A stretch of 64,000 nt of DNA, taken from NCBI GenBank assembly GCA_012295275.1, contig CM022668.1, positions 12,896,001 to 12,960,000 on the forward strand. Reading direction: 5' to 3'. This DNA comes from Chrysomallon squamiferum (lineage: Eukaryota > Animalia > Mollusca). Below, one piece after another: positions 10,301 through 45,200 of this stretch. The position numbers were made by a program, and so were the translations under genes. A model generated the notes under the pieces. That model was given only the letters and a program-made list of their open reading frames with translations. It was not told the origin of the DNA and did not search any database. How positions within the stretch are numbered: the first letter of the stretch is position 1; the number at the start of each line of letters is the position of its first letter.

Positions 10301-13300
10301 CTTTCCTTCTGTTTTATTTTTCTTTCATTATTGTTGTTATTACTGGTGACACTACTTTTAGTTTTTAAATCATAAATAGTGAAATATTGGTACTTTAATT
10401 ATTATTATTATTATTATTACTATTATTATTATTATTATTATTATTATTATTATTATTATTTTATTATATAAACCGTACTAGATCAGAAATATGGAATTAT
10501 TGATATTTTTATTAGTTTATTATTATTATTATTATAGAAACCTTACTAAATCATAATTATTGAATTATTCATATTTCTATTGTTTTATTATTGTTGTTGT
10601 TGTTATTGTTGTTGCTTTGTTCTTTTTTGTTGCTGCTGCTGCTGCTACTGTTATTATCATCACTGTCATTGTCATTACTACTACTTCTACATAATAATAA
10701 TAATATCATCATCATCATCATCAATACTATATAATAATAAAAACCATAATAATAATAAACACTATCATCATTGTCATCATCATTACTGCTACTACTACAT
10801 AATACTAAACACTGAACATCATCATCATCATCACTACTACTACTACATAATTGTCATCATCATTACTACTACTACGACATGATTGTCATCATCATTACTA
10901 CTACTACTACTACTACATAATTGTCATCATCATTACTACTACTACTACTACATGATTGTCATCATCATTACTACTACTACTACTACATAATTGTCATCAT
11001 CATTACTACTACTACTACTACATGATTGTCATCATCATTACTACTACTACTACTACATAATTGTCATCATCATTACTACTACTTCATCATTATCATTACT
11101 ACTACTACTACATCATCATCATCACTACTACTACATCATCATCATCACTACTACTACATCATTGTCATCATCATCACTACTACTATTACATCATTATCAT
11201 CATTACTACTACTACATCATTATCATCATCACTACTACTATTACATCATTATCATTACTACTACTTCATCATTATCATCATCACTACTACTACTACTACT
11301 ACAACTACTACAACTACTACTACTACTACCACTACCACTACTACTACTACTACTACTACTACTACTACAACTACTACTACTACAACTACTACTACTACAA
11401 CTACTACTACTACAACAACTACAACTACTACTACTACTACAACTACTACTACAACTACTACTACTACAACTACTACTACAACAACTACTACTACAACTAC
11501 TACTACAACAACTACTACAACTACTACTACTACTACTACTACTACTACTACTACTACAACAACTACTACTACTACTATCTTTTGCTGTGTTTTGCAGGGT
11601 TCAGCCGACTCCAACTACAGCCAGCCATCGTCAGATTTGTCTTTAGACGAAGAACGCGAAGCCCTCCGCAGAGAGACGGAGAGACAGGCTGTCCTACAGT
11701 TAGAGAAGGCCAAAGTAAGCTGTCTGTCTGTCTGTCTGTGTGTGTGTGTGTGTGTCTGTCTGTCTGTGTGTGTGTGTGTGTGTGTGTGTGTGTGTGAGAC
11801 AGCCTGTCCTACAGTTAGAGAAGGCCAAAGTAAGCTGTCTGTCTGTCTGTGTGTGTGTGTGTGTGTGTGTGTGTGTGTGTGTGTATGAGAGACAGGCTGT
11901 CCTACAGTTAGAAAAGACCAAAGTAAGCATCTGTCTGTCAGTCTGTCTGTCTCTCTGTGTCTGTCTGTGTAGTCTGTCTGTCTGTCTCTCTGTGTCTGTC
12001 TGTGTAGGTGTTTGCTTGTGAGACAGGCTGTCCTACAGTTAGAGAAGGCCAAAGTAAGCTTCTGTCTGTGTCTGTCTAATGTATGTGTGTCTGTATGAGT
12101 GTCTGTCTCTGTGTGTGTGTGAGTGACAGGCTGTCCTACAGTTAGAGAAGGCCAAAATAAGCTGTCTGTCTGTCTGTGTCTGTCTGTCTGTCTGTCTGTG
12201 TGTGTGTGTGTGTGTGTGTGTGTGAGACAGGCTGTCCTACAGTTAGAGAAGGCCAAAATAAACTTCTGTCTGTCTGTCTGTGTGTCTGTGTGTGTGTGTG
12301 TGTGTGTGTGTGTGTGTGTGTGTGTGTGTGTGTGTGACAGGCTGTCCTACAGTTAGAGAAGGCCAAAGTAAACTTCTGTCTGTCTGTCTGTGTGTGTGTG
12401 TGTGTGTGTGTGTGTGTGTGTGTGTGTGTGTGTGTGTGTGTGTGTGTGTGTGTGTGTGTGTGACAGGCTGTCCTACAGTTAGAGAAGGCCAAAGTTAGCT
12501 GTTGTTTAAAATCTTCTGTCTGTCTGTGTCTGTGTGTGTGTGAATGTTGTGTGTGTGTGTGTGTGTGTGTACAGGTTGTCCTACAGTATTATATATATGT
12601 TAGCCAAAGTTAGCTGTTGTTTAAAATCGTCTGTCTGTCTGTGTCTGTGTGTGTGTGAATGTTGTATGTTGTATGTGTGTGTGTGTGTGTGTATACATGT
12701 GTTTGTATGTATGTATGTATATATATGTTAGAGTATGTGTGTACACTGTTCACTGAGATAGATATAACAACATGTGTGTTATATTTCAGACAAAGCCTCT
12801 ACTGAAAGATAGTTCATAATGACGTGTGTTATATTTCAGACTAAGCATCTACTGTTCACTGTGATATATATAACAACATGTGTGTTATATTTCAGACAAT
12901 GCCTGTACTGTTCACTGAAATAGATATAACAACGTGTGTTATATTTCAGACTGTCTCTACTGAAAGATAGTTCATAATGACATGTGTGTTATATTTCAGA
13001 CAAAGCCTGTAGCATTTGCTGTCAGAACCAACGTGTCGTACGATGGTTCACTTGATGATGATTCACCAGTTCACGGTTTTGCTGTGTCATTTGGAGTCAA
13101 AGATTTCTTGCATATAAAAGAAGTGAGTAGTACCAGGCTTGTACTTGGTTATTTCAGACACAGTACTGTACATAGTGTTATAGTAGGTGACGTCTTTTTA
13201 AAAGGTTGTGTCATGGTAGATGTTTTCATAAAATAAGTCAGTTGTAAAGCTTGGTTTATGAAAAAGTAATTGTGAAAATCTTTTATAATTATAGTTTATT

Positions 13301-42200: not shown

Positions 42201-45200
42201 ATATTTTACCATTTGTCTTGAAAGTTTTAGTTTGTAAAATTCTAGAATGTATTAAATACAGTTTGCAGACTTCTTAAAACTGAAAGTGTTTTAAAGAAAA
42301 GAATAAATTCAAGACTGTAAATCTGTTAGATTATTATCATCATTGTTTTGAATAACAGACATACATAACTACACACTTACAGATAGATTACTTACATACT
42401 TACATACTTACCAACACACACCCACACACACAAACTCTAATAAAGACACACTCATACATACACACACAAACAAACACACACACAGACACACAGAGACACA
42501 GAGAGACATATTATAGACTGACCAAAGGTTCGTTGGTTTTGATAAGTCTGATGACTTTGATAGCTGTCTCTGATTCATCTCTGTCCACTGGACTTGTGTC
42601 AATCCTGGGCTCATAATCACCACAGGCTACTTTGTCATGTGTGTACAACAGAGCCTGAACCAATAAACAAATAAACAGATATACAGTATAATCTTTGTCA
42701 TGTGTGTACAACAGAGCCTGAACCAATAAACAAATAAACAGATATACAGTATAATCTTTGTCATGTGTGTACAACAGAGCCTCAACAGAACCAATAAACA
42801 AATAAACAGATATACAGTATAATCTTTGTCATGTGTGTACAACAGAGCCTGAACCAATAAACAAATAAACAGATATACAGTATAATCTTTGTCATGTGTG
42901 TACAACAGAACCTGAACCAATAAACAAATAAACAGATATACAGTATAATCTTTGTCATGTGTGTACAACAGAACAAATAAACAAATAAACAGATATACAG
43001 TATAATCTTTGTCATGTGTGTACAACAGAACAAATAAACAAATAAACAGATATACAGTATAATCTTTGTCATGTGTGTACAACAGAACAAATAAACAAAT
43101 AAACAGATATACAGTATAATCTTTGTCATGTGTGTACAACTGAACCAATAAACAAATAAACAGATATACAGTATAATTTTGTCATTCAAATAAACAGATA
43201 TACAGTATCCTTTTGTCATAAATGCAAAGAGCCTGAACCAATCAAATAAACAGATATTCAGTATTTTTGTCATGCCATATTAAACAAATAAACAGATATA
43301 CAGTTAATCTTTGTCATTTTAACAAATAAACAAATAAACAAACATACAGTATAATCTTTGTCATTTGGAAACAGAACAAATAAACAAATAAACAGATATA
43401 CAGTATAATCTTTGTCATGAAAAGATATAAATAAACAAATAAACAAATAAACAGATATTTAATCTTTGTCAAAACATTGAACAAATAAACAGATATACAG
43501 TATAATGGTCTTAATTTATTTTTTTATAACTATTTGTTTTTATTTTATTCACTATAAATGCTAACCCTGTATTCATTCAGATTTTGAAGTTTTTGGCCAA
43601 ATTTCATAATTTATTTACCATACTGCTATTTGGAATGACAATTTCCATTTCTTGTAGAAAAGATATATCTATATATAAACCAATATTTAACAAAGTATCA
43701 AAATTGAAAATTTTGGTTGGCTAAAGCTCAATACTTGGTTGTATGACCTTGTTCAATGTGATGGGTCACACCAAAGCTAATATTATGTTTAACTACCTAT
43801 GAGTAGGTTGTGATCTTAACTGCTATTAGCTGTCATATATAGATTTTTGTATAATGATTACTGTAGACTACTGACATTACTCCAAGGATTACCTTGTATC
43901 AATTAATGACACGATGGAATACAAATGCTTTTGTGTATATGAATGGAAAGGTTAATTGGCATATTTAAGTATATAATACATTTATCAGTTAATGACATGA
44001 TGGAATACAAATGCTTTTGTGTATATGAATGGAAATGTAAAGTGGTATGTATAAATGCCAGCATGCACATATATATGCATACAAAATCATGACATATCAT
44101 GTAAGAATTACCTTTCACTCACATGCAAAACTTTTGTTTGTGTCTTAACCTGAATAAGACATGAAGAGTAACTACTAGAAAGTTCGGTAGTAATAATGTT
44201 AGTGATTACCTGTAAGTGTGGTCTTGATAAAATCTGTAACAGTTCTTGGACATGAGAATCTTCAGATCGAAAACGAATTGTACAAAACACCTGATATAAA
44301 TAACAATAATATAAATAAATAGCAGTCAAATATATATATATATATATTCTTTAGAAAATAATTTATGTAATATGTAGAAAATTGTTAAAAAAATATGTTT
44401 TCTGTAGAAACTAATTGATGTTATATGTAGAAAATAGTTATAAACAGATAAAAAGTATTTTGTGAAGAAACAAATTGGTGAAATATATACAAAATAGATA
44501 TAAACAGTTAAAAATATATATCGTCTGTAGAAAATAGTTTAAAATATGTAATAAAGATACCACTATTATTAGAAACAGTTTAAAACAATTTGCACTGTCA
44601 TTTTAAAACAGAGGAAAAGAAATAATGATGACTATTGCATCTGAAGATTAAAATGATGTTTATTGTTTTCCATTTAAAATAAAATTTAATTTTTTCTATT
44701 TTAAACTTTGTTATTTACAGCTATTATTGTTTTCACTGACTACTGATTATAATTTTTTGAATTACGTTTATGATTTAAATTTCGTATGTTTTTTTAATTA
44801 ACGATTTAATTAACTAACAGAAACACAATGTTTAAAAATTACCTCTGCAGCTTGGGCAACTGCAAAGTCAGCCACAGGACGGAGACGTCTGACACTTCTC
44901 AGACGACGGAATGCCTACAACAACATCAACAACAACATTTACACAGAAAGCCAAATAATCAACAAAAAAAAAAATATCAAAGAATCGTTGAAACTTTAAG
45001 AAGAAAACAGCTGATAACTGGAAATTAATACTGATGTAACTAAACATTTTCAGACATGGGTTTTCCTAGCAATAATTAAAACAATTATTATGTAAGCTAA
45101 TATGAATATCAATTTAGAACATTATTACTGCACTAAATGTTAATCTCTTCATTATCGATATGTGACTATGGTAAGAACAGGTGATAGATACCATGCACTG

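What the first reader, a model, noticed from the sequence alone, without database searches (positions are those of the whole stretch)
11683..43505. Recurrent splice-junction-anchored tandem duplications across two genes
Seen: about ten exon boundaries are the terminal unit of a local tandem array that copies the splice site, usually with 9-70 nt of exon, into the intron or UTR. CACNB donors: 11714, 13122, 14009, 17354, 18584. CACNB acceptors: 13000, 14860. MPP7-like acceptors: 42654, 34077. MPP7-like donor 35657 and the stop codon 33041. The units are unrelated to one another, so this is not a dispersed TE family. In several arrays (14009, 18584, 33041, 42654) similarity decays with distance from the exon, and the coding sequence stays intact. 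Inference: either a polarised duplication or homogenisation process biased to exon edges, or genome-wide minisatellite birth where only edge-overlapping events survive selection. Either way the spliceosome must ignore dozens of near-perfect decoy sites, and the arrays are raw material for new exons and introns.
Basis: partly seen in the sequence, partly recalled or inferred. Interest (0 to 1): 0.8.

Follow-up and report, generated by a model that had tools for sequence, protein, structure and literature searches.

The report
Mirage repeats crowd snail exon edges
In two neighbouring snail genes, eleven exon edges have been copied into the adjoining intron or tail several times more often than random placement gives; this kind of repeat is already known from lancelets, chickens and a human gene, and here it is likely a harmless scar of DNA recombination or repair where conserved sequence meets variable sequence.

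Summary
Real, but a known kind. All 11 named edges have local copies, always on the non-coding side (11 of 54 edges). The genes are CACNB and an MPP7-like gene of a gastropod (closest named hits Gigantopelta aegis). Edge-spanning arrays number 9-11 against 2.2-3.2 expected after removing lethal placements (P 5e-6 to 2e-3; window chosen for the pattern), so the selection filter alone falls short. Contigs from three studies hold the MPP7 3' arrays. This is the lancelet 'mirage' / chicken 'exon stuttering' / human F7 type; the scan noted it before in at least 8 genomes and elsewhere in this one. Corrections: 13122 is one displaced copy; 14860 and 17354 are two-copy; a piece of the intron-3 array sits inside the intron-8 array; decay is significant in 2 of 7 arrays. 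The copies drift neutrally and 24 of 26 tested would break the protein. One RNA contig skips both arrays of MPP7 intron 15 but uses an AG 15 nt upstream of the ancestral acceptor. The cause of the edge bias is inferred, not shown.

The parts
11677..12641 (+). CACNB donor 11714 array: 8 copies of 31-36 nt of exon end plus donor plus a (TCTG/TG)n tract
   Evidence: 6 of 8 copies keep GT
12744..13012 (+). CACNB acceptor 13000 array: 4 copies, about 50-56 nt unit, 2-12 nt of exon
13085..13346 (+). CACNB donor 13122 with one displaced copy at 13304-13346 (38 nt of exon, 86% identical)
13992..14330 (+). CACNB donor 14009 array, 20-23 nt unit with about 14-16 nt of exon, decaying distally; seven copies score as better donors than the exon's own
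14706..14912 (+). CACNB acceptor 14860: one 101-nt tandem duplication with 51 nt of exon
17286..17548 (+). CACNB donor 17354: one 146-nt duplication with 67 nt of exon
18557..19660 (+). CACNB donor 18584 array, about 84-nt unit, about 10 decaying copies
18819..18899 (+). Piece resembling the distal intron-3 array (14251-14322) set inside the intron-8 array
   Evidence: score 86, shuffles at most 34; left join context
32867..33071 (-). MPP7-like stop-codon array, 32-nt unit, 5 copies in the 3' UTR; no splice site involved
34074..34740 (-). MPP7-like acceptor 34077 array, 69-108 nt spacing, 6 copies; unit ends at the AG
   Evidence: contigs of runs X1, X2, X6
34078..34092 (-). 15 nt (VLIFQ) included in one RNA contig through an upstream AG; absent from the G. 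aegis, Haliotis and Patella proteins
35029..35686 (-). MPP7-like donor 35657 array: 10 copies, 65- and 43-nt units, 97-100% identical
   Evidence: unit-to-unit join bridged by a contig of run X6
42628..43509 (-). MPP7-like acceptor 42654 array, 57-68 nt unit with 23-25 nt of exon; first two units in frame and stop-free
35785..36324 (-). Near-edge intronic array ending 20 nt before acceptor 35765; does not copy the AG
37251..37405 (-). Near-edge intronic array ending 46 nt before acceptor 37205
40430..40821 (-). Near-edge intronic repeat starting 9 nt after donor 40830
15906..15996 (+). Near-edge intronic array starting 24 nt after donor 15882

Best explanation
These are mirage-type minisatellites: short pieces spanning an exon edge that have been copied head-to-tail into the intron or UTR, likely as neutral by-products of recombination or repair that stalls where the invariant exon meets a highly variable intron. 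Shown: the copies come from the exon, lie only on the non-coding side, exceed random placement and drift neutrally. Inferred steps: (1) strand invasion or repair synthesis between alleles pairs in the exon, loses homology in the intron, and re-anneals a short way back, which duplicates the edge; (2) slippage and unequal exchange amplify and homogenise the units; (3) selection keeps only events that leave the reading frame whole, which puts the exon at the end of the array; (4) splicing likely takes the first donor and the last acceptor (the scanning shown for human F7), and products from decoys would mostly be destroyed as nonsense transcripts.
For: The exon parts of the units encode residues conserved in G. 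aegis, Haliotis, Patella and Lymnaea, so copying ran from exon to intron. Excess over a null that already removes lethal placements. Duplicated sequence covers 19-27% of non-exon bases within 1.5 kb of an edge and 2.5% beyond. One array sits at a stop codon and four sit 9-46 nt from an edge, which points to the conservation border rather than the splice signal. Other individuals are identical over exon 16 but divergent in the flanking introns: run X6 has 0 differences in 208 nt, against 28 plus 8 gap letters in 388 nt and 10 in 93 nt; X1 shows 144- and 192-nt joints. The intron-3 piece inside the intron-8 array fits template switching. Exon-part changes are 8 synonymous and 11 non-synonymous, which fits drift (P 0.45). 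24 of 26 decoys tested shift the frame or add a stop. Literature: meiotic strand invasion is one proposed cause of chicken stuttering; human minisatellites are tied to local meiotic recombination (PMC2599865 passages).
Against: No step of the birth mechanism was observed. Birth bias cannot be told from retention bias in one sequence. The stop-codon case is a single example. The allele comparison rests on a few contigs over 3.7 kb, and X6 may be a distant population. Several units carry microsatellites, so replication stalling is as plausible a trigger. The one RNA contig cannot tell the exon-proximal donor from the two most distal copies, and it does not use the acceptor expected from orthologues. 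The window was chosen for the pattern.
Confidence: 0.5

Rival explanations
1. Duplications arise evenly, but those next to exons last longer: deletions that cross a splice site are lethal and the exon copy cannot drift, so edge arrays stay intact and detectable while mid-intron arrays erode.
For: Introns here turn over fast (indels and about 7% allele divergence). The null models survival at birth only. Exon-containing units pass a complexity filter more easily.
Against: The excess held under looser complexity filters. Young, near-perfect arrays (35657, 42654, 14860, 17354), which have had little time to be filtered, are edge-anchored. The copies reach up to about 1 kb into the intron, where such protection is weak.
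Confidence: 0.25
2. Transcription- or splicing-coupled damage (polymerase pausing, R-loops) or fork stalling at nearby microsatellites places breaks at splice junctions, and end-joining or template switching duplicates them.
For: 10 of 11 anchors are splice sites. Units at 11714 and 17354 include microsatellite tracts, and a few letters are shared at several joins (read by eye; not tested against chance). Replication stress is also proposed for chicken.
Against: The stop-codon array has no splice site. The copies include intron sequence, so spliced RNA was not the template. Most units have no microsatellite.
Confidence: 0.17
3. The arrays are functional: decoy sites tune splicing or supply alternative in-frame ends.
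For: 25 of 34 donor copies score at least as well as the exon's own donor. The 42654 unit is in frame for two units. One RNA contig uses an upstream AG inside the last unit of the 34077 array.
Against: Neutral change in the copies. 24 of 26 tested decoys are disruptive. The upstream AG is not a copy of the acceptor, scores -2.5 against 7.1, and is flanked by an 8-nt direct repeat that could be a reverse-transcription jump.
Confidence: 0.05
4. Assembly artefact.
For: No contig or long read spans a whole array.
Against: Copies differ from each other in graded ways. Contigs of three studies lie on the MPP7 3' arrays, and a 95-nt contig of study P3 bridges a unit-to-unit join at depth 341 against 77 for the exon-16 contig (the tool says that depth is no copy number, and X1 may be the source sample).
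Confidence: 0.03

Closest known systems
Lancelet 'mirage' minisatellites (Adh3, globins BflGb6 and BflGb9, troponin C, PGBD5); PMC3087553 and PMC3902484, passages seen
   Same: Tandem copies of an exon-intron boundary, at 5' or 3' edges; units of 10-160 bp; many copies keep AG/GT; concerted evolution inside the cluster; normal splicing reported; mechanism stated as unclear.
   Different: Here in a gastropod, 11 in two adjacent genes, with a measured excess over a null, one at a stop codon, and one piece moved between arrays. Length polymorphism of the arrays themselves was not shown here.
Chicken 'exon stuttering' (bioRxiv 10.1101/2025.09.16.676548; passages and Discussion seen)
   Same: Local expansions of exon edges; over 90% of sources within 1 base of the border; median 36 bp of exon and 4 copies; purely intronic stuttering alongside.
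   Different: There on GC-rich dot chromosomes, in 3.4% of their introns. Here in DNA of about 28% GC, and in 7 of the 25 introns between the modelled exons of a selected window, so high GC is not required.
Human F7 intron 7 37-bp VNTR (PMC1557585, abstract seen)
   Same: First unit spans the donor; identical pseudo-sites downstream stay silent; the most upstream site is chosen by scanning, even against stronger pseudo-sites.
   Different: A single locus in mammals; scanning was not tested here.
Internal tandem repeats at exon-intron boundaries of human segmental-duplication genes (PMC2812944, passages seen)
   Same: Boundary repeats can activate cryptic sites and form new introns.
   Different: No new intron or exon is shown here; both genes are single conserved orthologues.

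Membership tests
Mirage / exon-stuttering minisatellite | Tandem or near-tandem unit spans an exon-intron boundary | tested here: met
   10 splice edges with copies; 13122 is a single displaced copy; the 34077 unit stops at the AG
Mirage / exon-stuttering minisatellite | Local origin from the adjacent exon; exon itself unchanged | tested here: met
   Exon parts conserved in other molluscs and frames open; 209 of 210 array pairs unrelated
Mirage / exon-stuttering minisatellite | Copies keep GT/AG signals in many but not all units | tested here: met
   31 of 34 donor copies and 14 of 16 acceptor copies
Mirage / exon-stuttering minisatellite | Normal splicing removes the array | tested here: inconclusive
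   One RNA contig (depth 2.7) skips 1564 nt, but its 30 letters on the donor side also fit two distal copies and it uses an AG 15 nt upstream; the other junctions were not tested
Mirage / exon-stuttering minisatellite | Copy number varies between alleles or individuals | tested here: inconclusive
   Indel joints in and beside the 34077 array in runs X1 and X6, but no contig spans an array
Dispersed transposable element or introner | One unit family at many loci, with terminal repeats or target duplications | tested here: not met
   Units differ per site and derive from each exon; no genome was held to search further
Intron gain by tandem duplication at AG|GT | A new intron whose two ends are the duplicated proto-splice site | tested here: inconclusive
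   Best match of intron start to next-exon start among 25 introns is 10 of 20 letters (MPP7 intron 15); intron positions in orthologues could not be read

The most novel reading that the evidence does not exclude
In highly polymorphic marine invertebrates, the border between invariant coding sequence and divergent non-coding alleles is a genome-wide mutational hot line. Recombination between alleles repeatedly duplicates these borders (splice sites and stop codons alike) and even carries pieces between introns of one gene, so that a sizeable share of introns hold batteries of equal or stronger decoy sites, some of which feed new in-frame protein segments (here possibly the five residues at 34078-34092 or the 21-residue unit at 42654).
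Probability: 0.2. Interest if true: 0.65.

Novelty: new member of a known kind. Interest (0 to 1): 0.3.

Why it matters
The repeat type is known, but its cause is stated as unclear in the lancelet and chicken papers. This window adds a mollusc, shows that GC-rich DNA is not needed, and gives a testable clue: the arrays follow the border of conserved sequence, including a stop codon. It also offers natural tests of splice-site choice, since at 14009 and 18584 the copies look like better donors than the site that the protein requires. In practice such arrays mislead gene prediction, spliced alignment and exon-primed markers.

Tried and rejected
No whole genome is held, so no genome-wide count was possible. 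A per-position background test showed no excess; I set it aside as circular but report it. No systematic likeness of intron starts to next-exon starts was found. The RNA run X9 left 34932-35551 uncovered, which proves nothing at that depth. Reads were laid on 32700-36400 only; the CACNB arrays and the 42654 array are unchecked in reads. Paper searches for a mollusc report found none: 0 papers with all five terms; listings only, nothing relevant by title; some searches gave the papers cited. The library lacks most subscription journals, and the original Adh3 paper was seen only as cited in PMC3087553. Supplements of the chicken preprint were not seen. Splice-site scores come from a crude matrix of the window's own 25 donors and 27 acceptors, and the copies scored were those picked, without the most decayed ones. 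No earlier notes lie near this place.
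Full report
Setting. The window is AT-rich animal DNA, dense in microsatellites. It holds a calcium-channel beta subunit gene (CACNB, + strand) and an MPP7-like MAGUK gene (- strand). 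Single exons find Gigantopelta aegis proteins first, at 91% and 98% identity, then other gastropods, so the organism is a snail, likely a neomphaline relative. I built exon models of 10 and 17 exons with open frames and confirmed them against the G. aegis proteins. No whole genome is held.

Observation. For each of 54 boundaries I asked whether a non-repetitive 18-mer across it recurs within 1.5 kb. Eleven do, exactly those named, and every copy lies on the intron or UTR side. Alignments give 1-10 or more copies per site, with exon parts from 0-4 nt (34077) to 67 nt (17354). Three details differ from the finding. 13122 is one displaced copy, and 14860 and 17354 are simple duplications. One pair of arrays is related: 18819-18899 in intron 8 matches the distal intron-3 array about 4.6 kb away (score 86; next of 210 pairs 38; 500 shuffles at most 34). 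Decay with distance is significant only at 18584 and 42654 among 7 testable arrays, and reversed at 13000.

Chance. Comparing edges with intron positions shows no excess (P 0.98 and 0.17), but that background is filled by the same arrays. I therefore counted arrays and dropped each seed unit at random among survivable places (non-exonic, or across one edge). Over 7 parameter sets, 9-11 arrays span an edge, against 1.2-1.8 expected in the whole window and 2.2-3.2 in the exon-dense core (P 5e-6 to 2e-3 for the core). With a hand-set list, 16 of 26 components (two are one array) lie within 50 nt of an edge, against 2.6 expected. Duplicated sequence covers 19-27% of non-exon bases within 1.5 kb of an edge and 2.5% beyond. 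The window was selected for the pattern, so these values overstate the genome.

Reality in reads. Nine public runs from three studies hold part of the MPP7 3' region; four were laid on 32700-36400. Contigs of X1, X2 and X6 lie on the three arrays there. A 95-nt X6 contig bridges a unit-to-unit join of the 35657 array with one difference, at depth 341 against 77 for its exon-16 contig. Depth is no copy number, X1 may be the source sample, and no contig spans an array. The same call shows invariant exon beside divergent intron: X6 has 0 differences over 33916-34123, but 28 plus 8 gap letters over 34564-34945.

Splicing. 31 of 34 donor copies keep GT and 25 score at least as well as the exon's own donor; 14 of 16 acceptor copies keep AG (crude matrix). 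At 14009 and 18584 the site required by the conserved protein scores below several copies. Using a copy would shift the frame or add a stop in 24 of 26 cases tested; the exceptions are the first two units at 42654. The only RNA evidence is one 216-nt contig at depth 2.7. It skips both arrays of intron 15 and joins exon 16 to exon 17 as modelled. Its 30 letters on the donor side also fit the two most distal copies, so the donor is unresolved. It enters exon 16 at 34092, 15 nt before the acceptor implied by orthologues, adding five residues that the G. aegis, Haliotis and Patella proteins lack. That AG is not a copy of the acceptor, and an 8-nt direct repeat at both ends of the skip allows a reverse-transcription artefact.

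Origin and fate. The exon parts encode residues conserved across molluscs, so sequence moved from exon to intron. Changes in the copies are 8 synonymous and 11 non-synonymous, as drift predicts. Polarity follows from selection: a duplication across a donor leaves the first copy functional, and one across an acceptor the last (inference). The excess needs more than that. I favour a birth bias at the border of conserved sequence (0.5), because one array is at a stop codon, four start just off an edge, introns differ strongly between individuals, and a piece has moved between introns. Retention bias (0.25) and transcription- or replication-linked breaks (0.17) remain open; function (0.05) and artefact (0.03) are unlikely. 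None of the birth steps was observed.

Known kind. Earlier notes of this scan supplied the word 'mirage' (17 findings in at least 8 genomes; one elsewhere in this genome), and I checked the papers. PMC3087553 (passages) and PMC3902484 (passages) describe tandem copies of exon-intron boundaries in lancelet genes, with normal splicing and an unclear mechanism. PMC1557585 (abstract) shows upstream-first donor choice in the human F7 VNTR. The chicken preprint (passages and Discussion) reports exon stuttering in 3.4% of dot-chromosome introns and proposes repair or meiotic strand invasion. PMC2812944 (passages) links boundary repeats to new introns, and PMC2599865 (passages) ties human minisatellites to local recombination. 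I found no mollusc report, in a library that lacks most subscription journals.

Verdict. A real, dense and clean gastropod example of a known repeat type, with a measurable edge bias whose cause is still open. New member of a known kind; interest 0.3.

Noticed in passing
window 20529-21056 (+): The last CACNB exon changes frame in a CCA-rich run near 20620-20690. The conserved C-terminus matches G. aegis only in the shifted frame. Probably an assembly indel; not checked in reads.
   Followed up: partly
window 46119 (-): MPP7-like exon 2 needs a GC donor (GC-AG intron) to keep the frame and match G. aegis.
   Followed up: partly
window 1229-1333 (+): An upstream CACNB first coding exon matching the G. 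aegis and Haliotis N-terminus; the intron after it is about 10 kb long and poor in complex arrays.
   Followed up: partly
window 35657 and 34077 (-): The start of MPP7 intron 15 resembles the start of the next exon (9 of 10 letters around the two junctions). This may be chance or an old duplication at a proto-splice site.
   Followed up: partly
window 6841-7281, 14493-14627, 24208-24447, 28267-28313, 31597-31694, 43897-44039, 49390-50011: Complex tandem arrays away from exon edges (the 'intronic stuttering' class); each is unrelated to the others tested.
   Followed up: partly
window 21056-33041: The two genes converge tail to tail across 12 kb. A candidate polyadenylation signal near 29316 suggests a very long CACNB 3' UTR (read from the sequence).
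   Followed up: no
whole window: Very dense microsatellites: 370 Tandem Repeats Finder rows at score 40 in 64 kb, GC 21-35% per 2-kb bin.
   Followed up: no
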